Below, in pieces: positions 20,971 to 61,086 of a DNA stretch of 64,000 bases. The stretch is from an uncultured Bacteroidales bacterium (GTDB lineage: Bacteria; Bacteroidota; Bacteroidia; Bacteroidales; JAIORY01). Positions within the stretch are counted from its first letter, which is position 1. Each line of letters starts with the position of its first letter. A model generated the notes under the pieces. It was not told the origin of the DNA, did not search any database, and was given only the letters and a program-made list of their open reading frames with translations. A program made the position numbers and the translations under genes. The DNA is taken from contig CAYOKJ010000001.1 of assembly GCA_964404485.1 (NCBI GenBank), positions 10,064-74,063 on the forward strand. Direction: 5' to 3'.

Positions 20971-21091
20971 ATACAAATATTTCAAACAAAATAAAATAAT
21001 TCATAAAATAGCTCTTAAGACACGTCAAGGTGTGTGTTTACAAAAAAATCTTATAATTTTATTTATCTTTGGATTCTCAACATTTTATAAA

Positions 21092-22720: not shown

Positions 22721-25700
22721 TTAGTGATTGTGTTTTAGATCAAACCTGAAAAATAATGGTAAATAAAGAAACAGGACAATAATTGAAAATAATAAACCTC
22801 CGATAGAACCTACAGCCAAAGCAAACCAAAACACTTCGTTTTGCCCGTAAACAATAAAAGGGACTAATCCCAAAATTGTTGAAATAATTGTTAATAATAT
22901 TGGAACTATTTTATTATTGTACGCCTTTAAATACAATTTTAACTTAGAAATATTGTGGTTATTATGTACTTTACGTAAATTATTAAATTCGTTAGTTATA
23001 TAGATTGATGAATTTACAACTATTCCGCTTAACAGAATAAATGAAGCATATCCTCCCTGATCAAAATTATAATCGAAAAGATAGAAAGTTAAGAAAATAC
23101 CTATGAATGATAAGGGTATTATGGAGATTATTGCTAATGGCTGAATAAATGATTCAAATAAAATAGCACAAATAAAATATACCAAAATAATTATCAAGAA
23201 AATTAAATAATACTGCTTTTCATTATTGTCATTCCAAAAACTCCATGATCTTTGTTTAGCATAATATCCAAGTGGCAATTCATCTTTCATTTCATCTAAA
23301 ACACTTTTTAAATGCAAATTGCCAAACTTTGAACTACCAAGATAATTATATTTAACAATGCGTATATATTGCTGATTTTCCTTGTATATACTTGAGCTTG
23401 CTTGTTTTTTTTCTACCTCAGATAAATGTTCAAGTTTTATAGACCCATTTTTTGATACGGGAGAATGAAACATATTCCAAATATCAAATTCTGAACTTTG
23501 TTTAGAGAGTATCTTAATATTTTTATATTTTCCATCAATAATATATGATAGATCAGAATAATTTTGAAGAGATATTTTTTTTAGTTGAGCGTAAATTCCA
23601 TCAACACTTATTCCTTTTAAAGCAAGTTTATTTTTATCAATATCAATATTGTACTCATAAAGTTTTTCTCGTTTCCACCAATAATTTGATCCACTAATAT
23701 TTACTTTTTGCACTCTTGGATGCTTTAAAAGTTTTTCTTCAAATTTCTTTGCTTGTTCATAAAGCATATCATAATTATATCCATATAATACAATAGCATA
23801 ATTAATCATATCACTTGTGCCTGCGCGGCTCGAAAATCCTTTTCCAACACCATAAATATTCCAACTCATGCCCCCGAGATCAATACTTTTTGAAATCAAT
23901 TTGCTTTTCAAAATATAGGGAAATGCAGAATTTTCGAAATCCTTTTTAAAATATATGGTCATCTCTGAATTTTGACTACTATATATTTTTGTAATATATT
24001 GTTGAATTTCGTTGTATTGAGATATGTGACTTTCAATTTGTTTGAAAACCGAATTCATTTGTTTGGTAGTTGACCCTTTTGGCATTGAAGCTGAAACATA
24101 CAAAGCTGTCTTTTCCGGTTTTGAATAATATGATTGCTCGAAAACATAATAATTAAATAGCCGTAAAGTTCCACCAAGAAATTTATTTACCGAAGGTTTA
24201 AAATTCTCAATATACCATTCGCTACCAATAGTATTATTATATAATTCGGCATACCATTTATCTTCTTCAACTTTGTTTGGCAGTAAAAACACCGGAATAC
24301 CAAATGATAAAACAGCTATTGTTATTGCTGTTTTTTTATATCTGGATAAAAACACAATTATTTTTTCATAAAATTTAGTAAAATTTACTACTCTCTTTCT
24401 TCTTCTGGTTTTTAATTTCTTTTGTTGTTCCGAAAATTTGAAAAGATTCATTAGTGCAGGAATAAAAAACAAGGCAACCAATAATGATACCGACATATTA
24501 ACCATTATTATAACAGCAAAATCCCATAAATTCAACTTTATATTTTCAGGCAAAAAGAAAATAATAGATAATGCTGCAATAGTAGTTAAGGTAGATGCTA
24601 AGATAGCAAGAAAAACTTTTTTATTGTGTTGATGTTTTAAATGATCAATCATCACAATGCTATTGTCAATAATAATTCCTAATGATATTGTGATACCTGC
24701 TAATGAGTACAAATGGATTTCTATTCTGAAAAAATAATAAAGAGCAAAACAAATAGAAATATTAGAAAACAAACTGATAATTATTATTAAAACATATCGC
24801 AAATTACGGCTTATCAAAACAACAAACAACAATAGTATAATTATTGTAAAGAAAGTACGATAATAAATTTTTGATAATTCAGCTTTGATATATTCTGTTG
24901 TATCAGAACTTAATAAAATGGAATAGCCAGCTGGCAGATCATTTATTATATTTTGAATATTATCTTTAATTTTATTTGACAGAACCAAATTATTTATCCC
25001 TTTATTAGGATAAATAACAAGATAAATTGAGTTAAGACCGTTGATTCTAAAATATGAATCAGGGGTTTTTTCTTTGTATTTAATGTTTGTAATATCTGTA
25101 AGATATATAATTCTGTTGCCGGTTTTTTTTACAGGAATAGCTGACCAATTTATCTTTTCATCAACTTTATTTCTAAGAATAACTGATATTGATGATACAA
25201 AAGTATCCTTTGTATTAGCCTGATTTTCTATTTTGTATGCTGTGCCTAATGTTTGTTTATCAAAATATTGACGAATTGCTGTTAAAATATCATGATAATT
25301 TATTGAAAGATTTTGTATAATATTTTTGTCATAAGTTATTTGCCACTCAAAGTGAGACGAACCGTAAACTTCTATTTTATCAATACCATTTATTACAGAT
25401 AATTTCTTTTTAATGCTTTTTTCGGCATATTGTTGAATGAAATTTGGAGAAACAGGTCCATTTAAAGTATATGTTAATACCGGTTTTAATTCTGCATTAT
25501 CGGGACGATTGACCGAAATAACTGGATAGGATAATTCGACAGGTAATTTAGAATAAACCTGTCTGATAATTGAAGAAATCTCGAAACGAACAAAATCAAT
25601 ATCAGTATGTTTATCAAACGAAATTGTAATTTGTCCGTTGTTTTTTGACGATACAGAAGTTATTTTACTTATCCCTCTAACTTTGCTAAACAATCCTTCT

Positions 25701-25972
25701 AATTCGCTTGTAACCTCTTGCTCCAATATTTCGGGCGAAGCATTTTGCCAGTAATAGCTCACGGTAAGAGAAGGTAATGTTGATGAAGGATTTAACTGCA
25801 CCGACAATAGTGGAATAAATGATAATCCAAGCAAAACCAATGCAAAAAATATTATTGCTGTAGAAAAAGCCTTATTTGACTTTCGCATTGACCCATAAAT
25901 TATTTGATTATTATTTGCGTTAAGTTTATTCATTCTATTTGTAAAATTAATATAATTATTTACACATTGCAT
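22721..25972 (-). CDS. efflux RND transporter permease subunit (AcrB/HAE family), no cognate adaptor gene adjacent
   Basis: About 1080 aa with 12-TM AcrB-like architecture. The true start is probably internal (MRKSNKAFSTAIIFFALVLLG, about 25888). Divergent from the LytTR gene. Confidence 0.85.
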   Translation of the reverse strand: MQCVNNYINFTNRMNKLNANNNQIIYGSMRKSNKAFSTAIIFFALVLLGLSFIPLLSVQLNPSSTLPSLTVSYYWQNASPEILEQEVTSELEGLFSKVRGISKITSVSSKNNGQITISFDKHTDIDFVRFEISSIIRQVYSKLPVELSYPVISVNRPDNAELKPVLTYTLNGPVSPNFIQQYAEKSIKKKLSVINGIDKIEVYGSSHFEWQITYDKNIIQNLSINYHDILTAIRQYFDKQTLGTAYKIENQANTKDTFVSSISVILRNKVDEKINWSAIPVKKTGNRIIYLTDITNIKYKEKTPDSYFRINGLNSIYLVIYPNKGINNLVLSNKIKDNIQNIINDLPAGYSILLSSDTTEYIKAELSKIYYRTFFTIIILLLFVVLISRNLRYVLIIIISLFSNISICFALYYFFRIEIHLYSLAGITISLGIIIDNSIVMIDHLKHQHNKKVFLAILASTLTTIAALSIIFFLPENIKLNLWDFAVIIMVNMSVSLLVALFFIPALMNLFKFSEQQKKLKTRRRKRVVNFTKFYEKIIVFLSRYKKTAITIAVLSFGIPVFLLPNKVEEDKWYAELYNNTIGSEWYIENFKPSVNKFLGGTLRLFNYYVFEQSYYSKPEKTALYVSASMPKGSTTKQMNSVFKQIESHISQYNEIQQYITKIYSSQNSEMTIYFKKDFENSAFPYILKSKLISKSIDLGGMSWNIYGVGKGFSSRAGTSDMINYAIVLYGYNYDMLYEQAKKFEEKLLKHPRVQKVNISGSNYWWKREKLYEYNIDIDKNKLALKGISVDGIYAQLKKISLQNYSDLSYIIDGKYKNIKILSKQSSEFDIWNMFHSPVSKNGSIKLEHLSEVEKKQASSSIYKENQQYIRIVKYNYLGSSKFGNLHLKSVLDEMKDELPLGYYAKQRSWSFWNDNNEKQYYLIFLIIILVYFICAILFESFIQPLAIISIIPLSFIGIFLTFYLFDYNFDQGGYASFILLSGIVVNSSIYITNEFNNLRKVHNNHNISKLKLYLKAYNNKIVPILLTIISTILGLVPFIVYGQNEVFWFALAVGSIGGLLFSIIVLFLYLPLFFRFDLKHNH

Positions 25973-26114: not shown

Positions 26115-26468
26115 ATGAAAAAACTACAAGTTACTACCCAAAATGGTTTTCAGTTTATTAATCCATTAACTATTTTATTTCTGAAAGCAAGCAATAATTA
26201 TACTGAAATTTTTTATACAGATAATAGTGATACACAACTAATTTGCAAAACTATAGGAAAAATTGAAAAATGTTTGCCAAGCGAATTATTTTTCAGATGC
26301 CACAGAACGTATATTATTAACATCAAGCAAATAACTGAGTTTAAATATTTGAATTGTGGTGGTATAATTACTTTAAAAAATAATCAGAAGATAAAACTTG
26401 CAAAACGAAAAAAGAAAATGTTCTTAGAAATTATCAAAAAAAATACATTTTCCCCGCTTACTCAGTAA
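26115..26468 (+). CDS. stand-alone LytTR family DNA-binding protein (no receiver domain)
   Basis: 117 aa. LytTR signature ...FFRCHRTYIINIKQI... Its last codons overlap the first 21-bp repeat unit of the downstream promoter. Confidence 0.85.
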   Translation: MKKLQVTTQNGFQFINPLTILFLKASNNYTEIFYTDNSDTQLICKTIGKIEKCLPSELFFRCHRTYIINIKQITEFKYLNCGGIITLKNNQKIKLAKRKKKMFLEIIKKNTFSPLTQ

Positions 26469-26517
26469 AACCGACCGCTCACTAAATAATCCGTACCGTT
26501 TACAAAAGACTTTCTTT
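26455..26517 (+). promoter_or_regulatory. 21-bp-phased direct repeats (2 good units plus 1 degenerate), candidate LytTR operator
   Basis: CGCTTACTCAGTAAAACCGAC (26455-75), CGCTCACTAAATAATCCGTAC (26476-96), then the degenerate CGTTTACAAAAGACTTTCTTT. Abuts the -33 region. Confidence 0.6.
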
Positions 26518-26521
26518 TTTG

Positions 26522-26553
26522 CTTGACAGGGAGACATTTATAATATAACTTTG
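26522..26553 (+). promoter_or_regulatory. Bacteroidetes-type promoter (-33 cTTG, 20-nt spacer, -7 TAACTTTG)
   Basis: TAACTTTG at 26546-26553 fits TAnnTTTG. TTG at 26523-26525. Start codon is 85 nt downstream. Confidence 0.55.
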
Positions 26554-26637
26554 CTATTAAAATAAATAATATTTCCAATTTAAAATCCAATACTATTTAT
26601 TATTCAAATTTTATTTATTAACTAAAAATTATGTATT

Positions 26638-26871
26638 ATGAAAAAGAAAACTATTAACAAATTATTTGTAGCAATATCTGTTACAATTTTTGGTATATTA
26701 CTTTTTTTTGCAACACCAAATAAATCTTATACTGCTGAGCCTACTACTTCAATATACCGTACATGTTGGAAATGGTGTGATCAACATTATGTTATTAGAT
26801 GTCGTCCTAACGGATCGGAATGTCTTGCTTCATGGCAAGATTTATGTAGTGATTCAACAAATGAACAATAG
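26638..26871 (+). CDS. small secreted Cys-rich peptide precursor 1 (77 aa; predicted 44-aa mature part with 5 Cys)
   Basis: MKKKTINKLFVAISVTIFGILLFFATPNKSYTA|EPTTSIYRTCWKWCDQHYVIRCRPNGSECLASWQDLCSDSTNEQ. Sec-type signal. First gene behind the conserved promoter. Confidence 0.6.
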   Translation: MKKKTINKLFVAISVTIFGILLFFATPNKSYTAEPTTSIYRTCWKWCDQHYVIRCRPNGSECLASWQDLCSDSTNEQ

Positions 26872-26878
26872 AACAATT

Positions 26879-26935
26879 ACCTGCTGTATTATGTAAAGTA
26901 TTGTAATATTAGAATACAAGTAGAAAACAGCAGGT
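26879..26935 (+). terminator. stem-loop after peptide gene 1 (candidate partial terminator/attenuator)
   Basis: ACCTGCTGT (26879-87) pairs with ACAGCAGGT (26927-35). An inner GTATT/AATAC stem is present. Followed by TATTTTG. Confidence 0.4.
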
Positions 26936-26956
26936 TATTTTGATAATAATAATAAT

Positions 26957-28180
26957 ATGTCAAAATACTTTTACCTTTTACTTACTTTATTAATCTTGAT
27001 GTTAATATCATGCAATGAAAAAGTTCACAATATAAAAGAGCAAAAATTTATAAAAAAAATATCAATTAACCCAACAAAAAATAATCTCTCAAAATTATCT
27101 GACATATTATCACAAAATTATAAAATAATTAGCTTGGAATCAAATGAAAATAGCCTAATTGGTAAAATTGATAAGATCGTTTTTTTAGATAGTAAAATTT
27201 TTATTTTAGATAAAGATAAAACAAAATCAATATTCATTTTTAATAATAATGGAAAATATGAATCAAAAATATCACGCTTTGGAGAAGGACCAAATCAATA
27301 TATCGAATTAGGTGATTTTTATATTGATAGTATTACAAAAACAGTAAATATTTTAAATACTTTTCCTGCTCGCTTGATGACATACGATTATCTTGGTAAT
27401 TTCCTTGCTGAAAAAAGAATTGCAGATTTTGCCTGCCAGATTGCCATCAACTCCGACAGCAATTTCTGTCTTTATTTGGGCAATAACATAACTTCTGAAA
27501 CAGTTTTTCATGACCTGATAATACAAAACAATAATAATGAAATTGTTGCTAAATATTTTCCTATTGACTCAGGTGATCAGTCAAAAGCTGTGATGATACC
27601 TTCCAATTTTTGTAGTTTTGGCGATTCCTTATCATTTATTCGTCCATTTTCCGACACAGTATTTGACATCACAACCAATGATATGAAAACTAAGTTCGTG
27701 TTTGATTTCGGAAAACACAATATGCCCAATGACTTCTTCAAAAACAAAAACTTAAGAAGCAATATACCACGCTTCTTTAATAAAGCCCAAAAGCTTATTA
27801 ACAAAAATCAATATGCATCCGATATTCAACCATATTACGAATCAGAGTTTCTTATTTACTTTTCATTTCTTTTTCAGAATAAAAAGAATTATTCATTTTA
27901 TTCAAAGAAGTCAAAGAAAGTATATCACACAAATTTAATTAGAAATGATATTATCCCCATTAAAATAAGTAAAGTTATAAAAGTGAAAAAAAAACAATTA
28001 ATTACAATTGTTGATGCATACGAATTTAAAAACGGAATTACGAATTTTTATAACGAATTAAATAAAACAAAGAAAAAGCATTTTTTTAAATCTAATTCTA
28101 AATTGGTTTTAACTGCCGTTAAAATAAAAAATACAGATAACCCAATCCTTATTGTTTACAACATAAAAGAATCGTTTTAA
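26957..28180 (+). CDS. 6-bladed beta-propeller lipoprotein (BF3164-like family)
   Basis: 407 aa. Lipobox LMLISC. The family-typical stretch KIFILDKDKTKSIFIFNNNGKYESKISRFGEGPNQY. Repeated beta-strand blades. Confidence 0.7.
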   Translation: MSKYFYLLLTLLILMLISCNEKVHNIKEQKFIKKISINPTKNNLSKLSDILSQNYKIISLESNENSLIGKIDKIVFLDSKIFILDKDKTKSIFIFNNNGKYESKISRFGEGPNQYIELGDFYIDSITKTVNILNTFPARLMTYDYLGNFLAEKRIADFACQIAINSDSNFCLYLGNNITSETVFHDLIIQNNNNEIVAKYFPIDSGDQSKAVMIPSNFCSFGDSLSFIRPFSDTVFDITTNDMKTKFVFDFGKHNMPNDFFKNKNLRSNIPRFFNKAQKLINKNQYASDIQPYYESEFLIYFSFLFQNKKNYSFYSKKSKKVYHTNLIRNDIIPIKISKVIKVKKKQLITIVDAYEFKNGITNFYNELNKTKKKHFFKSNSKLVLTAVKIKNTDNPILIVYNIKESF

Positions 28181-28186
28181 TAAAGC

Positions 28187-28816
28187 ATGTATAAAGATAA
28201 ATTAAAACAAATATCTATTCCGATTGCAATTATACTAATGGCTGCACTTATTTTGATATATTTTTATTTTAATAGTAAAATTGAAAGCTTTGAGCACAAT
28301 ATTTTTGTACTTGAAAAAAATGCTAAATCATATAAAAGCATGACTAACTCAATTCTACATTCCAATTACTTGCGAATAAAAAATGATGACCAGCCTTTCT
28401 CCCACAACATTTTTCTTTATAGTGATGATAATGATAGTATTACCTTTACAAATTTGATAAAGCAAAATAAAAAATTGCTGGTTTTCAGGTATTCCGAATT
28501 AAACTGCATGGCTTGTATTGACAAAGAAGTACTAAATTTAAAACAGTTCTTAAAAAACAGCAACGTGAAAATAATTATCATAGCAACCTATTCAAGCATG
28601 CGCGATTTATACTTATTTAAAAGGATAAACCAAATACCAAAAGCAAAAATTTATAACATTAAAAACCAACAAATGGGTCTTCCAATAGAAAAAAACAATA
28701 TCCCATATTATTTTGTTGCTGAAACTAATTTTGTAGCTGGAAAGTTTTTTGTGCCTAATAAATTATTCCCTGAATATTCTCAAAAATATTTATCAGAAAT
28801 TAATAAACTACCCTGA
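28187..28816 (+). CDS. membrane-anchored thioredoxin-fold protein with CxxC (CMAC)
   Basis: 209 aa. N-terminal signal-anchor helix. KKLLVFRYSELNCMACIDKE (beta1-CxxC-alpha1). A cis-Pro-like NIPYYFVAE follows later. Confidence 0.65.
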   Translation: MYKDKLKQISIPIAIILMAALILIYFYFNSKIESFEHNIFVLEKNAKSYKSMTNSILHSNYLRIKNDDQPFSHNIFLYSDDNDSITFTNLIKQNKKLLVFRYSELNCMACIDKEVLNLKQFLKNSNVKIIIIATYSSMRDLYLFKRINQIPKAKIYNIKNQQMGLPIEKNNIPYYFVAETNFVAGKFFVPNKLFPEYSQKYLSEINKLP

Positions 28817-28925
28817 GGCAGAGCCATAGGGGTATTAAATTGAGTTTGCTTTGCAAACATAATTGTTTTCGACCCAGAGGGTCGAGGAATTAAACCACGA
28901 ATGATTAAAAATAATACATTTTCCC

Positions 28926-28988
28926 CGCTTACTCAGTAAAACCGAAAGCTCACTTAGTAAAACCGACCGCTCACTAAATAATCCGTAC
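28926..28988 (+). promoter_or_regulatory. 21-bp-phased direct repeats (3 good units), candidate LytTR operator
   Basis: CGCTTACTCAGTAAAACCGAA (28926-46), AGCTCACTTAGTAAAACCGAC (28947-67), CGCTCACTAAATAATCCGTAC (28968-88). Confidence 0.6.
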
Positions 28989-29013
28989 CGTTTACAAAAG
29001 ACTTTCTTTTTTG

Positions 29014-29045
29014 CTTGACAGAGAGACATTTATAATATACCTTTG
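29014..29045 (+). promoter_or_regulatory. Bacteroidetes-type promoter (-33 cTTG, 20-nt spacer, -7 TACCTTTG)
   Basis: TACCTTTG at 29038-29045. TTG at 29015-29017. Same geometry as copy 1. Confidence 0.55.
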
Positions 29046-29129
29046 GTGTCAAAATAAATAATATTTTCAATTTAAAATACGATACTATTTATTATTCAAA
29101 TTTAATTTATTAACTAAAAATTATGTATT

Positions 29130-29354
29130 ATGAAAAAATTAACTGTATTTTTATCAATTGCTGTAAGTGTAATAATGTTTTTTGCCATTGCAGTAAATGT
29201 TTATGCCGAACCTCCTACTCAAGGTAGTGTTTTTGTTTCATCAAACGATTGTGAATATCAATTTGACGCCTATGATGTGAATGATAAATGTTTCTGTATG
29301 TGGAGTGGTATTGAGAATGAGTTCTGCTCATGTTGTAGTAGTAGTATCGATTGA
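29130..29354 (+). CDS. small secreted Cys-rich peptide precursor 2 (74 aa; predicted 48-aa acidic mature part with 6 Cys)
   Basis: MKKLTVFLSIAVSVIMFFAIAVNVYA|EPPTQGSVFVSSNDCEYQFDAYDVNDKCFCMWSGIENEFCSCCSSSID. Confidence 0.6.
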   Translation: MKKLTVFLSIAVSVIMFFAIAVNVYAEPPTQGSVFVSSNDCEYQFDAYDVNDKCFCMWSGIENEFCSCCSSSID

Positions 29355-29375
29355 TGAAATTTGAATTTTAACAAT

Positions 29376-29403
29376 AAGCCTTATGGCAATTGCCATAAGG
29401 CTT
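29376..29403 (+). terminator. perfect 28-nt palindrome after peptide gene 2 (candidate partial terminator/attenuator)
   Basis: AAGCCTTATGGCAATTGCCATAAGGCTT is its own reverse complement. Followed by AATTTTATATTTATT. It swallows the ORF-track ATG at 29383. Confidence 0.5.
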
Positions 29404-29418
29404 AATTTTATATTTATT

Positions 29419-30543
29419 ATGAAGAAGATTTTATTTGGATTATTATTAATACTGATTAGTTGCAATAATAAAAACAGTACAATACAAGAAAAACAACATA
29501 TTAAAGCAATCAGTAGAAATATTGATCAGGAGAGTTTGAAACTAGATGCTGAAGTTTCATTTGTGCAATTAGAAACTTCAAAGGAATGTCTTTTGGGGTA
29601 TATTATAAATATAGAAGTTACTGATGATTATATTTATATTTTGGATAGAAGTAGCTTTTTTGTTTTTACAAATAAAGGAAATTTTATAAAAAAGATTAAA
29701 AGAGGGAAAGGTCCAGGTGAATTAACCAGAGCAATAAATTTTAGTTTAGATTTAGCTCGAAATGAAATATATATAATAGAGATGGGCAATCTTTTACATA
29801 TATACAACAATCTTGCTGATTATAAAGAAACACATAAGTTGGATGGAAGTTTTATTGATGTTGTGAGAGTAGATGATGATAATTTTCTTTTATATACTGT
29901 GCTTCCACCAAAATATGAAGAATTTTTAATTTCAGTTTATAATAAAAAGAGTAAAAATATTACTAACAAATTCATTTCATCTAAAGATTTGTTAATGAAA
30001 GATTTGTCTATATTAACATATAATAATTTTTTTGTTAAAAACAGTGAAATATTCTTTTCAGCATCCAATTCAAGAAACATATATAAATACATAGGAAATG
30101 GCATGGAGACAACTTACTCAATTGATTTTAGGAATTTGGAACCACCTATATCATATTTTAGCATGTTTGATGATGTACGAAATTTCAAGAAAATGGTATA
30201 TAATGATGATTACGTTGGATTTTTAAATTATTGTTATGATCTTGGTAAGCTTGTGCTTTTTGGATTTAAATGTAAAGACTTTAACTGTGGGATTAAATAT
30301 AAAGATGAGAATATTATGTACATGAGTTCAGTTTCTGAACTATTTGATTTACCTCAAACACCTTCATTTGAAAGGCCTTATAATGCAAATGACAATCAAA
30401 TTCACTTTGTTTATTTTAATGATATTTTATTAAATGATAATTTACAAAAAAAAGAAGCGTTTTTAGAGATTGGCAATAAAATTATTCAAGTAAATGAAAA
30501 TAATAACCCAATTATTGTTACTCTCAAAATAAAAGAAAAGTAA
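29419..30543 (+). CDS. 6-bladed beta-propeller lipoprotein (BF3164-like family), paralogue 2
   Basis: Start moved to MKKILFGLLLILISC (lipobox). YIYILDRSSFFVFTNKGNFIKKIKRGKGPGEL matches the family G-x-GPGE motif. About 25% identical to 26957..28180 by eye. Confidence 0.7.
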   Translation: MKKILFGLLLILISCNNKNSTIQEKQHIKAISRNIDQESLKLDAEVSFVQLETSKECLLGYIINIEVTDDYIYILDRSSFFVFTNKGNFIKKIKRGKGPGELTRAINFSLDLARNEIYIIEMGNLLHIYNNLADYKETHKLDGSFIDVVRVDDDNFLLYTVLPPKYEEFLISVYNKKSKNITNKFISSKDLLMKDLSILTYNNFFVKNSEIFFSASNSRNIYKYIGNGMETTYSIDFRNLEPPISYFSMFDDVRNFKKMVYNDDYVGFLNYCYDLGKLVLFGFKCKDFNCGIKYKDENIMYMSSVSELFDLPQTPSFERPYNANDNQIHFVYFNDILLNDNLQKKEAFLEIGNKIIQVNENNNPIIVTLKIKEK

Positions 30544-30544
30544 T

Positions 30545-31168
30545 ATGAAACTTAAATGGAATATTTTTTATTTTATTTTATCAGCAATACTATTAAGTAT
30601 AATTTTAATTTTACTATATAATTTTAAAACAAAATTAGAAACAGAGTTTAATAAAAAATACTCCCAAATCAAAAATGAATGTGATTTAGTTCAAGATGTA
30701 TTAATGAATAATTTAACTAATTCAAATTCTAATATTGGATTTAGATTTAATGATGATATTATTGTAGAGGACACAGCTTGCAATAAGTTGAAGTTAATAA
30801 ATATAATCAATGGAGAAAATGTTTTAATATATAGAATATCAGACACACATTGTTCTACGTGTGACGTTGCTGGTATAAAAAGTTTGTTAAGAACCAACTC
30901 AAAAATACCTTATAATAAGATTATTATAATAGGATCTTTTTATAATACAAAATTGTTGAATTCTTATATTACTGCTAATAATATTAAATATAGGTCTTAT
31001 AATCTCAAACAAAGCATTAATATTAAAGCTGAGAAATTTAACTTCCCCTATTTCATTATAGTAAATAAAAATTTAGAAGTACTAAGTTGTTTTTTTCCCG
31101 AAAAGACAAAACCATATTTAACTGAGTATTTTTTTTCAGGAATAAAGCATTTATTAAATAATTATTAA
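30545..31168 (+). CDS. membrane-anchored thioredoxin-fold protein with CxxC (CSTC), paralogue 2
   Basis: 207 aa. N-terminal anchor helix, NVLIYRISDTHCSTCDVAG, and later FNFPYFIIVNKN. Begins 1 nt after the stop of the propeller gene. Confidence 0.65.
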   Translation: MKLKWNIFYFILSAILLSIILILLYNFKTKLETEFNKKYSQIKNECDLVQDVLMNNLTNSNSNIGFRFNDDIIVEDTACNKLKLINIINGENVLIYRISDTHCSTCDVAGIKSLLRTNSKIPYNKIIIIGSFYNTKLLNSYITANNIKYRSYNLKQSINIKAEKFNFPYFIIVNKNLEVLSCFFPEKTKPYLTEYFFSGIKHLLNNY

Positions 31169-31219
31169 AACTAATTTACATAATTAACGAAATAATAAAG
31201 CTACAATAGTTGTTTTGTT

Positions 31220-31254
31220 TTTGCATTTTAATATCTTTTTTATTTCTACCTTTG
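31220..31254 (+). promoter_or_regulatory. possible promoter of the adaptor-RND operon (-7 TACCTTTG)
   Basis: TACCTTTG at 31247-31254, 22 nt before ATG 31276. TTTG at 31220-31223, but the 23-nt spacer is longer than consensus. Confidence 0.35.
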
Positions 31255-31275
31255 TCTAAAATCCATACTCCTAAA

Positions 31276-32337
31276 ATGAAAATACTAAAATTCATTTCTT
31301 TTATCCTTGTTTTAATTTCTATCTCATGTACTAACAACAATAAGGATATTGAAGACAGCAAGATCGAAAACAAATCGAATGATGAAATACAAAAAGTTGA
31401 GATAGTTGAAGTATTTCCACAAGTTTTTTATAATCAAATAATAGCAAACGGTAAACTTTCGGCGGTTCAAAAAGCAGAAATTAAATTTAAAACCTCAGGA
31501 ACACTAAACAAGATATTAGTAAAAAACGGAGACAGAGTCAAAAAAAATCAAACAATTGCAGTTATTGAAAATACTACACAAAATTTAGAAATTGCATCAG
31601 CCAAAGATGCTTTGGATAATGCAAGAATTGAGTTAAACTCGTTAATTATCGGGTACGGTGGCAAGCAAAATGATACTTTAAGTGTACCTATTTATATTTA
31701 CGAAAATCTTAAAATTCAAAGCATGTATAATAGTACATTAAATTCTTTACAAAAAGCAAAACTTAATTTTTCTTATACAATTTGTAAAGTTCCATTTAAC
31801 GGAATAATAGGCAACTTATCTATAAAAAATCATAACTTTATTAATTCATCCGATGATTTTTGTACTATTATTAATGATAAATATTTTGAAGTCGAATATT
31901 CGATTATCGAAACAGAAGCACCTTATTTATCATTAAATCAAACTGTACAAATAATTCCTTTTTCAGATGAAAAATTAAAAATAGAAGGAAAAATATCTGA
32001 AATAAATCCTATGGTTGATGATGACGGTTTAATAAATATTAAAGCATTAATAAAAAATCCTGCAAATAATTTTCTTGATGGTATGAATGTTAAAGTAATT
32101 ATTAAAACACCGGTAAAAAATCAACTTGTTATACCAAAAGAAGCACTCGTACTAAGGTCTAACCGAGAAGTTGTTTTTACTTACAAAAACCAATTAGCAA
32201 AATGGAATTACGTAACAATTGCTTATGAAAACAGTAATACTTATGCCATTTTGGAAGGAATAAATGCCGGTGATTCGGTAATCTATAAAGGAAATTTGAA
32301 TCTGGCGCATGATGCTAAGGTCGTGCTTAATAAATAA
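31276..32337 (+). CDS. efflux RND transporter periplasmic adaptor subunit (lipoprotein)
   Basis: Start moved to MKILKFISFILVLISISC (lipobox). Lipoyl-like hairpin (TSGTLNKILVKNGDRVKKNQTIAVIE) and a beta-barrel C-terminus. Confidence 0.85.
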   Translation: MKILKFISFILVLISISCTNNNKDIEDSKIENKSNDEIQKVEIVEVFPQVFYNQIIANGKLSAVQKAEIKFKTSGTLNKILVKNGDRVKKNQTIAVIENTTQNLEIASAKDALDNARIELNSLIIGYGGKQNDTLSVPIYIYENLKIQSMYNSTLNSLQKAKLNFSYTICKVPFNGIIGNLSIKNHNFINSSDDFCTIINDKYFEVEYSIIETEAPYLSLNQTVQIIPFSDEKLKIEGKISEINPMVDDDGLINIKALIKNPANNFLDGMNVKVIIKTPVKNQLVIPKEALVLRSNREVVFTYKNQLAKWNYVTIAYENSNTYAILEGINAGDSVIYKGNLNLAHDAKVVLNK

Positions 32338-32343
32338 TTAATA

Positions 32344-35300
32344 GTGATTAAATTCCTCATACATCGTCCCATAGCAGTTATAATGACTCTTGTAGCATTA
32401 GTTACTCTTGGTGTGATTACTGCCTATAAATTACCCGTTTCCTTACTTCCTAATATTGATATTCCTGAAATTACAATACAAATAAATTATAAAAACACTT
32501 CGGCGAGAGAATTAGAAAATGCAGTTGTAAAACCCATACGCAACCAGTTACTTCAGTTAAATCATTTAAAAGATATTAAAAGTGAAACAAAAGATGGTTA
32601 TTCTATACTTAATTTAAAATTTGATTATAAAACAAATATCAATTATGCTTTTATCGAAACCAATGAAAAGATAGATGCATTAATGAGTTCTATGCCGAGA
32701 GAAATGGAACGTCCGAAAATTATAAAAGCTTGTGCTTCCGATATTCCGGTTTTTAAAATAAGTATTATTCCTAAGGACGAATATTGGTATAAAGAAAATG
32801 ATTTACTCAAATTAAGTGAATTGGCAGAATCAGTAATTAAGAAAAGAATTGAACAACTTGATGTTGTTGCAATGGTTGATATTAGCGGTTTACAATCAGC
32901 AGAACTTGCAATAATTCCAGACATAAAAAAAATACAAAATCTTAATATTGATTATTCTAAAATAGAAAATGCAATTTCAAATAATAATATTGATCTGGGA
33001 AACATTACAATTAAAAATGGACAATATCAATACAACATTAGATTCTCTTCCATTTTACAAACAAAAGAAGATATTGGCAATATTTATTTGAGTACCGAAA
33101 AAAAGCGTATTATTCAACTTAAAAATATTGCCGAGATAAAAGTTCGTCCTCAAAAACGAACCGGAATGTACTTATATGATAATAAGGAAGCCATTATTAT
33201 GTCGGTAATTAAACAAGCTGATGCACAAATGGCTCAGTTAAAGGAAAGCCTTGATAAATTAGTTGACGAATTTAACAATAATTATAACGAAATTGAATTT
33301 AAAGTCAGTCAGGACCAAACTCAATTACTAAAATTTTCAATTAACAACCTTAAACAAAGCTTATTATTTGGCGGACTTTTAGCCATGGTGATTATGTTTA
33401 TTTTTATGAGAGATTACAAATCACCATTTCTTATTATCATAAGCATTCCTGCTTCATTGATTATCAGCATGTTTTTTCTTTATTTATCAGGAATATCAAT
33501 TAATATTATTTCACTCTCGGGTTTAATTCTCGGTGTAGGAATGATGGTTGATAATTCAATAATTGTAATTGATAATATTAATCAATATCTTGATAAATCA
33601 TATTCTCTTAACAAAGCTTGCATTTTGGGTACAAACGAAATAATTCGTCCTTTGATAAGCTCTGTTTTAACAACTTGTGCGGTTTTTGTTCCCCTTGTTT
33701 CTTTGAGTGATATTTCGGGAGCTTTGTTTTACGATCAGGCAGTAACTATTGCAATTAGTTTAACTACTTCATTATTGGTTTCAATCATGATATTACCTGT
33801 TTTATTTCGCTTATTTTATATTAAAAACAAAAACAGTAACAATTATTTGCTTAGCAAAAGTTATAATTTATTCGACATTGAAAAGATTTATGAAAAAAGC
33901 ATAAATTTTATCTTTAAAAATAAACTTATTGTATTGTTACTTTTTGTTCTATTAATTCCGCTGGGTATTTTTTTATTCAAGAATATTAAAAAACAAAGTT
34001 TTCCTGATATTAAACAAACCGCTGTTATATTTAATATTGACTGGAATGAAAATATAAACCTTGATGAAAACAAAAAACGAATAATAAATCTGTTTGAACA
34101 AATTAATACTCCTGTGCTGTATAAAAATATATTGATAGGTGAACAGCAATTTTTACTAAATAAAGAACAAGAAAAAAGTCAATCTGAAGCATCTGTATTT
34201 ATAAAAACTAAATCAACAAAAAATATAAAAAATATAAAAAATGAAATCGATAGTTTATTAAAATCAAATTATCAAAATATTGAATTTTCTTTTCAATCTC
34301 CCAAAAATGTTTTTGAGCAATTATTTAAAAATGATGAATCCTCCTTTGTGGTAAAAATTCAAAGTATCAATAAAAATATCCCTCCTAAAATTAACAAAGT
34401 GAATAATTTTATTACTCAATTACAAGATAAACCTTATGCACAATCAATTAACGAAATACCAATAAAAAACAATTTAGTAATATCAATATTATCCGACAAA
34501 TTACTAATTTATAATGTTTCATATCAAACTTTAATTGATCAACTCAAATCATCTTTTAATGAAAATAAAATAGGATTATTAAAATCGAATAATAAATTTA
34601 TTCCCATTATTATAGGTGAAAAAAATAAAATTCTTTTTGATATTATTAAAAATGTAAAAATTAAAAATATTAATAATGAACTTATTCCAATCAGCTCGTT
34701 AATATCAATTTCAACAAGGTCGGATTATAAAACTATTATTGCCGATAAACAAAGCGAATACATTCCGGTAAATTTATTAGCTAATAATAATGCTAAGATG
34801 ATTGAAGAAGACATAAATAACATTCTTAAAAATAGCTCAGAATTAGAAGCCGATTTTTCAGGTAGTATTTTTCGTAACCGCGAACTTTTAAATGAATTAG
34901 AAATTGTATTATTAATATCCGTTTTATTATTATATTTTATTTTGGCTGCACAATTCGAATCATTAATTCAACCAATAATTGTATTACTTGAAATTTTATT
35001 TGATCTTTCGGGTGCATTAATAATGTTAATTATTTTTGGTAACTCATTAAATATCATGTCAGCTATTGGTATCATTGTAATGGGTGGAATAATAATAAAT
35101 GATTCGATATTAAAAGTTGACACAATAAACCAATTAAAACGTCAGGATATTCCTTTACTAAAAGCAATAAAGATTGGAGGAAAACGTAGATTAAAACCAA
35201 TTATTATGACTTCACTCACCACTATATTAGCTTTATTCCCTTTATTGTTTTCATCGGGTATTGGAGTCGAATTACAAATACCATTAGCTTTGGCAATTAT

Positions 35301-35379
35301 CGGTGGAATGACAATTGGTACAATCGTCAGTTTGTATTTTATTCCGATTGCCTATTGGTTTATTTATAAAAATTCATGA
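32344..35379 (+). CDS. efflux RND transporter permease subunit (AcrB/HAE family)
   Basis: 1011 aa. GTG start, MIKFLIHRPIAVIMTLVAL. 12-TM AcrB architecture. Confidence 0.9.
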   Translation: MIKFLIHRPIAVIMTLVALVTLGVITAYKLPVSLLPNIDIPEITIQINYKNTSARELENAVVKPIRNQLLQLNHLKDIKSETKDGYSILNLKFDYKTNINYAFIETNEKIDALMSSMPREMERPKIIKACASDIPVFKISIIPKDEYWYKENDLLKLSELAESVIKKRIEQLDVVAMVDISGLQSAELAIIPDIKKIQNLNIDYSKIENAISNNNIDLGNITIKNGQYQYNIRFSSILQTKEDIGNIYLSTEKKRIIQLKNIAEIKVRPQKRTGMYLYDNKEAIIMSVIKQADAQMAQLKESLDKLVDEFNNNYNEIEFKVSQDQTQLLKFSINNLKQSLLFGGLLAMVIMFIFMRDYKSPFLIIISIPASLIISMFFLYLSGISINIISLSGLILGVGMMVDNSIIVIDNINQYLDKSYSLNKACILGTNEIIRPLISSVLTTCAVFVPLVSLSDISGALFYDQAVTIAISLTTSLLVSIMILPVLFRLFYIKNKNSNNYLLSKSYNLFDIEKIYEKSINFIFKNKLIVLLLFVLLIPLGIFLFKNIKKQSFPDIKQTAVIFNIDWNENINLDENKKRIINLFEQINTPVLYKNILIGEQQFLLNKEQEKSQSEASVFIKTKSTKNIKNIKNEIDSLLKSNYQNIEFSFQSPKNVFEQLFKNDESSFVVKIQSINKNIPPKINKVNNFITQLQDKPYAQSINEIPIKNNLVISILSDKLLIYNVSYQTLIDQLKSSFNENKIGLLKSNNKFIPIIIGEKNKILFDIIKNVKIKNINNELIPISSLISISTRSDYKTIIADKQSEYIPVNLLANNNAKMIEEDINNILKNSSELEADFSGSIFRNRELLNELEIVLLISVLLLYFILAAQFESLIQPIIVLLEILFDLSGALIMLIIFGNSLNIMSAIGIIVMGGIIINDSILKVDTINQLKRQDIPLLKAIKIGGKRRLKPIIMTSLTTILALFPLLFSSGIGVELQIPLALAIIGGMTIGTIVSLYFIPIAYWFIYKNS

Positions 35380-60955: not shown

Positions 60956-61004
60956 ATGGGTGATTAAGCGAAAATATTTATTACTTGGTTGAGTAGGCAA
61001 TAGA

Positions 61005-61084
61005 CAGTAAAGCAGTAAAACAGTAAAGCAGTGAAACAGTAAAATAGTAAAACAGTGAAACAGTAAAACAGTGAAACAGTAAAA
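61005..61084. repeat. ten tandem copies of the octamer CAGTRAAR ending 2 nt before a start codon
   Basis: Units at 61005, 13, 21, 29, 37, 45, 53, 61, 69 and 77: CAGTAAAG, CAGTAAAA, CAGTAAAG, CAGTGAAA, CAGTAAAA, TAGTAAAA, CAGTGAAA, CAGTAAAA, CAGTGAAA, CAGTAAAA. Confidence 0.9.
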
Positions 61085-61086
61085 CA

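What the first reader, a model, noticed from the sequence alone, without database searches (positions are those of the whole stretch)
26432..29132. Regulatory block ~95% identical between the two cassettes while the genes it drives have diverged to ~25-30% aa identity; copy 2 carries a fossil of the LytTR gene 3' end
Seen in sequence: 26432-26640 and 28903-29132 align with 9 mismatches over ~165 nt by my count, plus one 21-nt unit indel. The shared block runs from the last codons and stop of the LytTR gene (ACATTTTCCCCGCTTACTCAGTAA), through the repeats, promoter and an ~80-nt AT-rich 5'UTR, to ATGAAAAA of the peptide genes. Copy 2 therefore contains a piece of LytTR coding sequence with no LytTR gene attached. 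That marks a segmental duplication of the whole unit. Downstream of the ATG the peptides become unalignable within ~25 codons, and the propeller and Trx paralogues are only distantly similar.
Inference: either strong purifying selection or gene conversion acts on the control region while the payload diversifies, or different payloads were recruited behind a portable promoter module. Two direct repeats 2471 bp apart would also allow recombinational loss or amplification of cassette 1.
Basis: partly seen in the sequence, partly recalled or inferred. Interest (0 to 1): 0.8.

Follow-up and report, generated by a model that had tools for sequence, protein, structure and literature searches.

The report
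Copied LytTR promoter before two cassettes
Two old, very different three-gene peptide cassettes in a Bacteroidota genome sit behind nearly identical copies of one regulator-binding promoter block, and comparison with relatives points to recent copying between the two sites rather than to conservation alone.

Summary
Window 26442-26645 and 28913-29137 differ by 9 substitutions in 203 nt (95.6%) plus one 21-nt unit. The genes behind them are 26-30% identical in protein, and their third codon positions are at the composition background.

The block is a LytTR-type promoter module. It has 9-bp direct repeats ACCG[CT]T[CT]AC at an exact 21-nt phase, a TTGACA-N17-TAACTTTG promoter, an unstructured AU-rich leader and a conserved start region. 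A stand-alone 117-aa LytTR gene lies next to it.

Each cassette encodes a Sec-signal Cys-rich peptide, a DUF5128 lipoprotein and a membrane-anchored TlpA/ResA-like thioredoxin-fold protein. The array lies next to RND efflux genes.

Both payloads have orthologues in another species, so the tandem array is old. The blocks are species-specific: window versus a type-A relative gives 37 'concerted' sites against 1 'orthologous' site. Selection alone is therefore rejected, and ectopic gene conversion or re-copying is the best fit.

Seven genomes show the same pattern, with at least five block types, and the first cassette slot varies between species.

The 'LytTR fossil' is mainly the first operator repeat, which the LytTR reading frame overlaps in this lineage. 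No deletion variants were found. This is a new variant of a known kind, of moderate interest.

The parts
22721..25972 (-). Divergent RND (AcrB-type) transporter gene on the left flank of the array
   Evidence: ORF. Called as PF00873 ACR_tran in the identical contigs. The same left flank is present in L086, L091 and L082.
26115..26468 (+). Stand-alone LytTR DNA-binding protein (117 aa, no receiver domain). Its last codons overlap the first operator repeat.
   Evidence: PF04397, E = 2e-18, residues 14-107. Relatives are 76% (L011) and 52% (L086) identical.
26442..26645 (+). Regulatory block, copy 1, with three operator repeats
26453..26503 (+). Operator of copy 1: 9-mers CCCGCTTAC (26453), ACCGCTCAC (26474) and ACCGTTTAC (26495), spaced exactly 21 nt apart
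   Evidence: The paired pattern is absent from shuffled window sequence.
26523..26553 (+). Putative promoter of copy 1: TTGACA (26523-26528), 17 nt, then TAACTTTG (26546-26553, fits the Bacteroidetes -7 motif TAnnTTTG)
   Evidence: Read from the sequence. The transcription start is not mapped. The E. coli-type scan did not list it because the second hexamer matches only 3 of 6.
26560..26637 (+). AU-rich, unstructured 5' leader. It ends in the start region TTAACTAAAAATTATGTATTATGAAAAA (26618-26645), which is conserved across species.
   Evidence: Fold z-score +0.9. The start region is shared with L091, L081, L088 and L086.
26638..26871 (+). Peptide 1: Sec-type signal sequence plus a mature part of about 44 aa with 5 Cys
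   Evidence: No Pfam or NCBIfam hit.
26879..26935 (+). Hairpin after peptide 1 (likely attenuator or terminator)
   Evidence: Fold z-score -2.6.
26957..28180 (+). DUF5128 six-bladed beta-propeller lipoprotein 1 (lipobox LISC)
   Evidence: PF17170, E = 2.5e-42. Orthologue in L081 at 43% identity.
28187..28816 (+). Membrane-anchored CxxC protein 1 (thioredoxin-like)
   Evidence: 27% identical to CxxC protein 2, with the CxxC motif and family columns conserved. Orthologue in L081 at 40%.
28817..28912 (+). Spacer with short GC-rich hairpins and no homology elsewhere. Its last ~21 nt (about 28892-28912) show the weak similarity to the LytTR 3' end, and no LytTR-derived sequence is detectable further upstream.
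28913..29137 (+). Regulatory block, copy 2, with four operator units
28924..28995 (+). Operator of copy 2: CCCGCTTAC (28924), degenerate AAAGCTCAC (28945), ACCGCTCAC (28966) and ACCGTTTAC (28987). The extra 21 nt lie between 11-nt direct repeats AGTAAAACCGA (28935, 28956).
29015..29045 (+). Putative promoter of copy 2: TTGACA, 17 nt, then TACCTTTG
29130..29354 (+). Peptide 2: signal sequence plus a 6-Cys mature peptide of the conserved family CEYQF...C[FWY]C[ILMV]W[CNS]G[IV]E..[FT]C.C
29375..29404 (+). Strong terminator-like hairpin after peptide 2
   Evidence: Fold z-score -5.5.
29419..30543 (+). DUF5128 lipoprotein 2, a member of the conserved 'last cassette' clade
   Evidence: PF17170, E = 7e-29. 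Tree. 64% identical to L081.
30545..31168 (+). Membrane-anchored TlpA/ResA-like thioredoxin-fold CxxC protein 2
   Evidence: AlphaFold2 model with pLDDT 86.5. Foldseek matches to ResA, TlpA and Bacteroides thiol-disulfide oxidoreductases at probability 1.0.
31210..35379 (+). RND adaptor (membrane-fusion protein) and RND pump directly after cassette 2
   Evidence: TIGR01730, E = 3.6e-48. ACR_tran. The same linkage is present in L086, L088, L093 and L095.

Best explanation
The block is the operator and promoter module of the adjacent stand-alone LytTR regulator. The protein is expected to bind the 9-bp direct repeats ACCG[CT]T[CT]AC, spaced 21 bp apart, with three units in copy 1 and four in copy 2. 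The last repeat ends 19 nt upstream of TTGACA-N17-TA(A/C)CTTTG. Binding would switch on both cassettes together.

Each cassette makes a Sec-exported Cys-rich peptide. Its gene is followed by a hairpin, then by a DUF5128 lipoprotein gene and a membrane-anchored thioredoxin-like oxidoreductase gene. The oxidoreductase probably handles the peptide's disulfides. The neighbouring RND system probably exports the peptide or protects against it.

The two payloads are ancient paralogues. The near-identity of the blocks comes from recent ectopic homologous recombination between the two promoter regions, that is, gene conversion or re-copying of the regulator-proximal module in front of cassette 2. Selection on the operator repeats and on the translation start region adds to this, and those conserved segments also serve as homology anchors.

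After the last homogenisation, copy 1 probably lost one 21-nt unit by slippage between the 11-nt repeats AGTAAAACCGA, and nine substitutions accumulated in the promoter-to-leader part.

Shown here: the sequence anatomy, the domain and fold assignments, the orthology of the payloads, and the species-specific identity of the blocks. Inferred: DNA binding and activation by LytTR, the recombination mechanism and its direction, and the roles of the peptide, propeller, thioredoxin-like protein and RND system.
For: 1. Operator geometry. The 9-mers sit at an exact +21 phase and end 19-20 nt before a -35-like hexamer in the window, L086 and L091; the truncated L011 contig shows only the +21 phasing. 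The pattern occurs only in the two blocks of the window and is absent from shuffles. A LytTR domain protein is adjacent. Published LytTR sites are 9-bp repeats separated by 12 bp, for example BrsR ACCACTTAT-12 bp-ACCGCTTAT (PMC6193735).

2. The same repeat pair occurs in 69 genome stretches, almost all from Bacteroidota, against roughly 5 expected from information content (my estimate). 14 of these have a LytTR ORF within 8 kb, and in L037 and L069 a stand-alone LytTR gene lies directly upstream, as in the window.

3. The payloads are old. Window versus L081: propeller 1 43%, CxxC 1 40%, propeller 2 64%, CxxC 2 67%, against 26-33% for paralogues. The cassette-2 clade is shared by five species.

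4. The blocks are young and species-specific. Window versus L081 blocks are 51-54% identical, against a shuffle background of 49.2 +/- 2.3. Window versus L086 (same module type, LytTR 52% identical) gives 37 sites where both copies share a species-specific base against 1 site that follows position. Over the repeat stretch held by the L011 contig the window copies are identical, but they are only 80-85% identical to L011.

5. Exchange between copies in a relative. Strains L081 and L082 differ at 24 alignment columns in about 4.2 kb, and 23 of these lie in the two blocks. In the upstream ~95 nt of the block there are no fixed differences between the copies, and some polymorphisms are shared between them. 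In the downstream ~90 nt there are only fixed differences between the copies.

6. The pattern recurs in seven genomes, with paralogue identity of 22-28% and upstream-region identity of 46-86% over 140-200 nt, with homogenised cores of 80-98%.

7. The leader shows no RNA structure and there is no Rfam hit, so a structured RNA is not what keeps it identical.
Against: - No binding, transcription-start or expression data exist for this system.
- The window population is clonal (99.9-100%), so ongoing conversion cannot be seen in this species.
- The strain evidence rests on two short-read metagenome contigs of another species, where paralogous repeats might be mis-assembled.
- The distance from the last repeat to the -35 hexamer (19 nt) is longer than the 4-11 bp reported for LytTR regulatory systems.
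- Gene conversion cannot be told apart from acquisition of cassette 1 by single-crossover integration at the block, which would also leave two direct copies.
- The 0/86 against 9/117 split could reflect selection on the operator rather than a second, younger conversion tract.
- Only 64 kb of the genome is visible, so further copies and other donors are unknown.
Confidence: 0.6

Rival explanations
1. The repeats are a scar of cassette acquisition. Cassette 1 entered as a circular or linear DNA that carried its own copy of the block and integrated by homologous recombination at the resident block. This leaves two direct copies flanking the insert, and the copies are similar because the donor was a close relative.
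For: - The slot next to the regulator holds different payloads in different species.
- Duplicated flank fragments lie at the junctions: a fossil of the RND adaptor 5' end before block 2 in L086 (81% over 219 nt) and a duplicated RND 5' end plus LytTR gene in L091.
- The homology between copies ends after ATGAAAAA in the window, L081/L082 and L091; in L086 and L088 the start region reads ATGAAGAAA and differs between copies.
- IS elements lie inside the array in L088.
Against: - The window and L081 share the same cassette-1 type but have unrelated block types, so payload and block do not travel together. A replacement or conversion step is still needed.
- No variants lacking cassette 1 were found in 44 contig look-ups.
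- No circle junctions could be sought with these tools.
Confidence: 0.2
2. Both copies date from the original duplication and have been kept nearly unchanged by strong purifying selection on every part of the control region.
For: - The operator repeats, the -35/-7 elements and the start region are plausibly constrained.
- None of the 9 mismatches hits a 9-mer, TTGACA, or a defined base of TAnnTTTG.
Against: - Orthologous blocks in species with the same payloads are at random-level identity.
- Site patterns are 37 to 1 in favour of copies within a genome being each other's closest relatives.
- The leader is unstructured and AU-rich with no Rfam hit.
- In L081 and L082 the block is the most variable part of the locus, not the least.
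Confidence: 0.04
3. The block is a mobile or dispersed intergenic repeat (MITE-like, or a general promoter cassette) that inserted independently upstream of both peptide genes.
For: The 30-nt operator core is found at many unrelated loci in Bacteroidota, including 13 contigs of one Daejeonella genome assembly.
Against: - Only the ~30-40-nt operator is shared at those loci, not the 200-nt block.
- There are no terminal inverted repeats or target duplications around the block.
- Only two copies occur in 64 kb.
- Copy 1 is continuous with the LytTR gene.
Confidence: 0.03

Closest known systems
LytTR-family operators of peptide and bacteriocin regulons in Firmicutes (AgrA, ComE, BlpR, PlnC/D; HdrR/BrsR of Streptococcus mutans)
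   Same: - 9-bp direct repeats separated by 12 bp, placed upstream of the -35 element.
- Several operons in one locus carry the same repeats.
- The targets are small secreted peptides with accessory genes.
- The core sequence even resembles BrsR's ACCGCTTAT (PMC6193735).
   Different: - The host is a Bacteroidota member.
- The regulator is a 117-aa LytTR domain alone, with no receiver domain, cognate HPK10-type kinase or membrane inhibitor gene.
- The peptides have Sec signal sequences rather than double-glycine leaders, and there is no C39 ABC exporter.
- There are three to four repeats rather than two.
- The last repeat lies 19 nt from the -35 hexamer.
- Identity between the copies covers the whole ~200 nt, not only the repeats.
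Streptococcus pneumoniae blp locus (bacteriocin/immunity region)
   Same: - The core regulatory and transport genes are conserved.
- The set of peptide cassettes behind promoters carrying BlpR-binding motifs is variable and mosaic, with evidence of recombination (PMC4517551).
   Different: - The cassette content here is a peptide, a DUF5128 lipoprotein and a thioredoxin-like protein.
- RND efflux genes take the place of an ABC exporter.
- Promoter homogenisation within a genome was quantified here. It is not reported in the passages of that paper that I read.
Concerted evolution of duplicated bacterial sequences by gene conversion (rrn operons, tufA/tufB; my own knowledge)
   Same: Copies within a genome are more alike than orthologues between species. 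In the L081/L082 comparison, polymorphisms are shared between the copies and no fixed differences separate them.
   Different: Here the homogenised tract is a short non-coding control region, and the adjacent coding sequences escape homogenisation completely.
Integron cassette arrays
   Same: Tandem cassettes are separated by a recurring sequence element, and cassette content varies between strains or species.
   Different: - There is no integrase and no attC-like imperfect inverted repeat.
- Each cassette carries its own promoter.
- The recurring element is a transcription-factor operator.

Membership tests
LytTR-type operator/promoter | Direct repeats of about 9 bp separated by about 12 bp (21-bp period) | tested here: met
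   The 9-mers are at 26453, 26474 and 26495, and at 28924, (28945), 28966 and 28987. The spacing is exactly +21. The geometry is as in PMC6193735.
LytTR-type operator/promoter | [quoted passage not shown] | tested here: inconclusive
   The last repeat ends 19 nt before TTGACA. Reported systems have 4-11 bp. The transcription start is not mapped.
LytTR-type operator/promoter | A LytTR-domain regulator that binds the repeats | not testable with these tools
   A PF04397 protein is encoded directly upstream. The co-occurrence recurs in L086, L091, L037 and L069. Binding itself needs a gel-shift or DAP-seq experiment.
LytTR regulatory system (LRS, HdrRM/BrsRM type) | Stand-alone LytTR regulator without a receiver domain | tested here: met
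   The protein is 117 aa and only PF04397 matches, over residues 14-107.
LytTR regulatory system (LRS, HdrRM/BrsRM type) | Co-transcribed downstream gene for a transmembrane inhibitor of the regulator | tested here: not met
   The next gene is the 77-aa secreted peptide precursor, which has its own operator and promoter. No multi-pass membrane protein gene lies next to the regulator.
LytTR regulatory system (LRS, HdrRM/BrsRM type) | Direct repeats upstream of the regulator's own operon (positive autoregulation) | tested here: not met
   A pattern search with up to 2 mismatches finds the repeat pair only in the two blocks and not upstream of 26115.
Class II bacteriocin / pheromone three-component regulon (blp, pln, spp type) | Double-glycine leader peptides, a C39-peptidase ABC exporter, and a histidine kinase plus LytTR response regulator pair | tested here: not met
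   The peptides have Sec-type signal sequences. The flanking transport genes are RND and adaptor. The regulator lacks a receiver domain. The only nearby kinase (21032-22612) is of HisKA type and is separated by the RND gene.
NVEALA (PF14055) peptide family | Match to the Pfam model | tested here: not met
   Neither peptide has a Pfam hit at E <= 0.1 that belongs to this family.
TlpA/ResA-like thioredoxin-fold thiol-disulfide oxidoreductase | Thioredoxin fold with a CxxC motif at the start of helix 1, plus a membrane anchor | tested here: met
   The model has pLDDT 86.5, a long N-terminal helix covering residues 2-61, and CxxC at residues 103-106. Foldseek probability is 1.0 to ResA, TlpA and Bacteroides oxidoreductases, with target-normalised TM scores of about 0.5-0.68. 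There is no sequence-level Pfam or PDB hit. Redox activity was not tested.
Integron cassette array | Integrase gene and attC imperfect inverted repeats between cassettes | tested here: not met
   Only AT-rich, low-complexity inverted matches were found in and around the blocks. No recombinase gene lies in the locus.
Concerted evolution by gene conversion | Paralogous copies within a genome are closer to each other than to positional orthologues, with polymorphisms shared between copies | tested here: met
   37 against 1 site patterns for the window versus L086. In L081/L082 polymorphisms are shared between copies and there are no fixed differences in the upstream zone of the block. Caveat: the strain evidence rests on two metagenome contigs.

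The most novel reading that the evidence does not exclude
The promoter blocks, together with the translation start region (TTAAC..AAAA..TGT[AT]ATGAA[AG]AA), which is kept even between unrelated block types, may act as homology anchors of an integrase-free cassette-exchange system in Bacteroidota. In this reading, units of peptide, propeller and thioredoxin-like genes are swapped, excised or inserted by ordinary homologous recombination at these anchors. A lineage could then change the payload in the regulator-proximal slot, or replace the whole regulatory module, while keeping all cassettes co-regulated. This would be an evolvable 'plug-in' array for secreted disulfide-rich peptides.
Probability: 0.15. 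Interest if true: 0.75.

Novelty: new variant of a known kind. Interest (0 to 1): 0.5.

Why it matters
- **A testable operator.** The work gives a concrete operator, ACCG[CT]T[CT]AC at a 21-bp period, for stand-alone LytTR regulators in Bacteroidota. LytTR proteins are very numerous in this phylum (my own knowledge), and my literature searches found no defined binding sites for them there. The same motif marks dozens of loci in other Bacteroidota genomes.
- **A case of promoter homogenisation.** A short control region is homogenised between ancient paralogous operons, and the same pattern recurs in seven genomes with different block sequences. This shows that co-regulation of tandem cassettes can be maintained by recombination rather than by conservation.
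- **An unstudied gene family.** It draws attention to a large cassette family: a Cys-rich secreted peptide, a DUF5128 lipoprotein and a TlpA-like protein, next to RND efflux genes. The thioredoxin-like protein alone has at least 1270 clusters (at 50% identity) with E <= 1e-10. Full-text searches for DUF5128 and NVEALA found no paper.

Tried and rejected
- **Metagenome scans.** Both scans found nothing: a lineage-specific DNA pattern and a LytTR protein alignment. That collection evidently lacks this species.
- **LytTR homologue search.** It returned only one relative, on a 929-nt contig.
- **Database searches with no result.** Rfam gave no hit on the window or on five related loci. A PDB sequence-profile search for the CxxC protein gave none. 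Full-text searches for DUF5128 and NVEALA found no paper.
- **Structured RNA in the leader.** Rejected, because the leaders fold no better than shuffled sequence.
- **MITE or attC reading.** Rejected, because there are no meaningful inverted repeats.
- **Further LytTR remnants upstream of copy 2.** Beyond the ~21 nt of weak similarity at its 3' end, the 96-nt spacer has no detectable similarity to LytTR or to any related locus.
- **Deletion or amplification variants.** None were found among 23 contigs carrying the LytTR protein and 21 contigs carrying peptide 2. Several contigs break inside the blocks, as expected for repeats.
- **Strain variation in the window species, L086 and L088.** The populations are clonal, so they give no information.
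- **E. coli-type promoter scan.** It was no better than shuffles and did not list the block promoter.

Full report
**1. Observation.**
The two stretches exist as described. MAFFT and an exact count give 9 substitutions in 203 aligned nt (95.6%) between 26443-26645 and 28914-29137, plus one 21-nt unit present only in copy 2. Perfect identity begins at 26442/28913. Weaker similarity (17 of 21) reaches about 21 nt further into the LytTR reading frame. The homology stops abruptly after ATGAAAAA. All nine substitutions lie downstream of TTGACA (0/86 against 9/117, Fisher p = 0.011).

By global alignment the downstream genes are 29.9% (peptides), 25.8% (DUF5128 proteins) and 26.8% (CxxC proteins) identical. 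Third-codon identity is 47.8%, 41.1% and 33.3%, against 33-37% expected from composition (BLASTP). The first refutation condition, that non-coding identity is no higher than synonymous identity, is therefore clearly not met.

Contigs from independent assemblies of several metagenomes are 99.9-100% identical to the window. The 8 that span both blocks carry the same nine differences. The structure is real and fixed in the sampled population.

**2. Anatomy of the block.**
- It contains 9-mers CCCGCTTAC, ACCGCTCAC and ACCGTTTAC at an exact 21-nt phase. Copy 2 has a fourth, degenerate unit, AAAGCTCAC.
- The last 9-mer ends 19 nt before TTGACA. After 17 nt comes TAACTTTG (copy 1) or TACCTTTG (copy 2). 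This fits the Bacteroidetes -7 motif TAnnTTTG (established knowledge: Bayley et al. 2000). It is a poor E. coli -10 element, as expected for an activator-dependent promoter.
- None of the nine mismatches touches a 9-mer, TTGACA, or a defined base of the -7 motif.
- The ~75-nt leader is AU-rich and less structured than shuffled sequence (z +0.9 and +1.7). Each peptide gene is followed by a significant hairpin (z -2.6 and -5.5). There are no Rfam matches.
- The gene directly upstream of copy 1 encodes a 117-aa protein that is a LytTR DNA-binding domain and nothing else (PF04397, E = 2e-18).
- Nine-bp repeats separated by 12 bp are the published signature of LytTR binding sites. The BrsR site ACCACTTAT-12 bp-ACCGCTTAT is even similar in sequence (PMC6193735).

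**3. The payloads.**
Each cassette encodes three products.
- A 74-77-aa precursor with a Sec-type signal sequence and a mature part with 5 or 6 Cys.
- A DUF5128 six-bladed beta-propeller with a lipobox.
- A ~208-aa protein with an N-terminal membrane helix and a CxxC motif. It has no Pfam or PDB sequence hit. Its AlphaFold2 model (pLDDT 86.5) matches ResA, TlpA and Bacteroides thiol-disulfide oxidoreductases at Foldseek probability 1.0.

This thioredoxin-like family is large, with at least 1270 clusters (at 50% identity) at E <= 1e-10. The array lies between a divergent RND gene and an adaptor-RND pair, and the same linkage is seen in the relatives.

**4. Relatives.**
Genomic contexts of homologues gave the following loci.
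- **L011.** LytTR 76% identical. Four operator units follow the gene, and the contig then ends.
- **L086/L087.** LytTR 52% identical, with the same module type. Slot 1 holds a 63-aa peptide, a DUF4221 protein and a 151-aa protein. A fossil of the adaptor 5' end comes next, followed by block 2 and the conserved cassette 2.
- **L091.** A different LytTR lineage (27% identical), present twice. One copy lies in front of a cassette with no Pfam hits and the other in front of cassette 2.
- **L081/L082/L083 and L088-L090.** No adjacent LytTR gene and an unrelated 'type B' block, but the same tandem cassettes.
- **L084 and L092.** Further block types.

Window and L081 cassettes are orthologous pair by pair: propeller 1 43%, CxxC 1 40%, propeller 2 64%, CxxC 2 67%, peptide 2 46%, against 26-33% for paralogues. 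The two-cassette array therefore predates the split of these species. In a tree of the propellers, cassette 2 forms a tight clade in five species, while the slot-1 proteins are scattered.

**5.
If both copies had simply been conserved since the old duplication, orthologous blocks should also be conserved between species. They are not.
- Window versus L081 blocks are 51-54% identical, against 49.2 +/- 2.3 for shuffles.
- The cleaner test uses L086, which has the same module type. Of 158 ungapped four-way columns, 37 show a base shared by both copies of one species and different in the other species. Only 1 follows position.
- Over the repeat stretch held by the L011 contig the window copies are identical, yet they are only 80-85% identical to L011.

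Purifying selection alone is therefore rejected. The copies within each genome share a recent ancestor.

Direct signs of exchange come from two strains of the L081 species. Of 24 differing columns in about 4.2 kb, 23 lie in the two blocks. In the upstream ~95 nt of the block there is no fixed difference between the copies. Several polymorphisms are shared or swapped between the copies. For example, both L082 copies read TGTACATTG where the L081 copies read TGTATAGTG and TGCATACTG. In the downstream ~90 nt there are only fixed differences between the copies and no strain polymorphism. This is the classical signature of gene conversion confined to a tract. The caveat is that it rests on two short-read contigs.

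The window shows the same two zones: identical operator, 92% identical promoter-leader.

**6. Generality.**
Seven genomes carry tandem cassettes whose propellers are 22-28% identical, yet the core of each upstream block is 80-98% identical between copies (46-86% over the whole 140-200 nt upstream region). These are the window, L081, L086, L088, L091, L084 and L092. The block sequences fall into at least five types that share at most the operator repeat geometry. The one element shared across types is the start region (window TTAACTAAAAATTATGTATTATGAAAAA, L091 TTAACTAAAAATTTATGTTATGAAAAA, and similar in L081, L088 and L086).

Regulatory modules and payloads are re-assorted between species.
- The window and L081 share both payloads but not the module.
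- The window and L086 share the module but not payload 1.
- L091 couples cassette 2 to a different LytTR.

The 'portable module, different payloads' idea therefore holds at the level of the family. For this window, however, the payloads themselves are old residents.

**7. The 'fossil'.**
In frame, copy 2 reads ..MIKNNTFSPLTQ* against the LytTR tail ..IIKKNTFSPLTQ*, so the sequence identity is real. However, the stretch TTTTCCCCGCTTACTCAG is the first operator unit.
- In L086 the homologous unit lies after the LytTR stop codon and is present in both copies.
- In L011 a 1-nt difference changes the reading frame and the protein tail (..FFPAY*), while the DNA motif is kept.

The DNA, not the protein tail, is what is conserved. 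In the window/L011 lineage the LytTR reading frame simply runs into the module. Beyond those ~21 nt of weak similarity, nothing upstream in the 96-nt spacer resembles LytTR or anything else. L091 shows that a complete second LytTR gene can precede cassette 2. A deleted second gene therefore remains possible but is not required.

The 21-nt difference lies between 11-nt direct repeats AGTAAAACCGA. L011 has four units after LytTR. The four-unit state of copy 2 is therefore probably ancestral, and copy 1 probably lost a unit by slippage. L091 shows the same kind of unit-number difference, 2 against 3.

**8. The operator elsewhere.**
The second refutation condition was that the block is a general intergenic repeat. 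This is met only for the ~30-nt operator core. The pattern ACCGYTYACT-N11-ACCRTTYAC occurs in 69 stretches of the species-representative genome collection, against roughly 5 expected from its information content (my estimate). Nearly all are from Bacteroidota, and 13 are contigs of one Daejeonella genome assembly. The sites usually lie upstream of genes for secreted proteins. Fourteen loci have a LytTR ORF within 8 kb. In L037 and L069 a stand-alone LytTR gene ends right at the repeats, as in the window. The full ~200-nt block is not shared with any of these loci.

**9. Mechanism.**
- **Shown.** The anatomy, the domain and fold assignments, the orthology of the payloads, the species-specific identity of the blocks, and the two-zone pattern.
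- **Inferred.** LytTR binds the repeats and activates both promoters. The hairpin after each peptide gene sets a high ratio of peptide to accessory transcripts. The thioredoxin-like protein forms or isomerises the peptide's disulfides in the periplasm. The RND system exports the peptide or confers tolerance. Homogenisation occurs by RecA-type ectopic recombination anchored in the selected operator and start-region segments.
- **Not distinguishable here.** Conversion versus single-crossover integration of a cassette that carries a block, which would also create the direct repeats.

No deletion or amplification variants were seen in 44 contig look-ups. Consensus assemblies would hide rare ones.

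**10. Comparison and verdict.**
The system works like the LytTR-controlled peptide regulons of Firmicutes and like the mosaic blp locus (PMC6193735, PMC4517551). It is not a member of the LytTR regulatory system class, because it has no inhibitor gene and no autoregulatory repeats. It is not a member of the double-glycine bacteriocin systems. It is not an integron.

It is a new variant of known kinds: a LytTR operator combined with concerted evolution. The setting, an unstudied Bacteroidota cassette family, is itself uncharacterised. Interest is moderate.

Noticed in passing
L012-L080 (genome-contig hits), e.g. L013, L014, L017, L019, L023, L038, L043, L045, L052, L059, L066, L075, L077: The pair ACCGTTYAC-N12-ACCGTTYAC, often within the near-identical 40-mer TTTACCGTTTACTAAATAATACCTACCGTTTACTCATTT, lies upstream of many unrelated genes. 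It occurs in 13 contigs of one Daejeonella genome assembly and in Pedobacter, Sphingobacteriales, Chitinophagales and Saprospiraceae. It looks like a large LytTR regulon motif in Bacteroidota.
   Followed up: partly
L081 946-1035 and 3467-3557 versus L082: Two strains with otherwise identical cassettes (1 difference in about 4 kb) differ at 23 columns inside the two promoter blocks. The differences include the length of a poly-T tract (10-13 T) just upstream of the putative promoter, which could also act as a phase-variable spacer.
   Followed up: partly
L086 8183-8401 versus 10771-10989: A non-functional copy of the 5' end of the RND adaptor gene (81% identical over 219 nt) lies just upstream of block 2. 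It marks an older segmental duplication or recombination whose right end lay inside the adaptor gene.
   Followed up: partly
L091 4007-4799 versus 7808-8578: The duplicated module here includes the 5' end of the divergent RND gene, the whole LytTR gene (76% aa identity), the operator (2 against 3 units) and the start region (42 nt, 98%). Identity is highest at the LytTR 3' end (90-97%).
   Followed up: partly
L088 2749-3765 and 5827-7155: An IS110-family transposase gene lies between the two cassettes. An IS4-type (DDE_Tnp_1) element has truncated the thioredoxin-like gene of cassette 2 in a widely sampled species (77 index blocks).
   Followed up: no
L081 1122-1347 and L082 930-1155: The orthologue of peptide 1 is split by a +1 frameshift between the signal sequence and the Cys-rich part, in both strains. 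It is either a pseudogene or a case of recoding.
   Followed up: no
L081 20-922 versus L082 1-693: The left flank of the array differs between the two strains. One has a YhcG/DUF1016 nuclease gene and the other has the divergent RND gene, and the junction lies exactly at the start of block 1.
   Followed up: partly
window 60990-61101: About 14 tandem copies of an 8-nt unit (AGTAAAAC / AGTGAAAC) lie immediately upstream of an ATG at about 61088. This is a possible slipped-strand, phase-variable region.
   Followed up: no
window 11180-13438 (-) and 37962-40178 (-): Two S46 (DPP7/DPP11-type) dipeptidyl-peptidase paralogues are 74-79% identical in DNA and lie 26.8 kb apart. They look like ordinary paralogues. 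A T9SS-sorted protein (Por_Secre_tail) lies at 9021-11036.
   Followed up: partly
L069 1-471 (- strand): A stand-alone LytTR gene followed by three 21-nt-spaced ACCGTTCAC repeats drives a peptide that starts MKKKNLTSKLQLKKEVV. By recall only, this resembles the Bacteroidetes double-glycine bacteriocin-type leader. If so, the same regulator-operator design would serve a different peptide class.
   Followed up: no
L093 7759-8496: A type I signal peptidase (S26) gene sits inside a three-cassette array in a Bacteroidales genome assembly. This is consistent with Sec-dependent processing of the cassette peptides.
   Followed up: no
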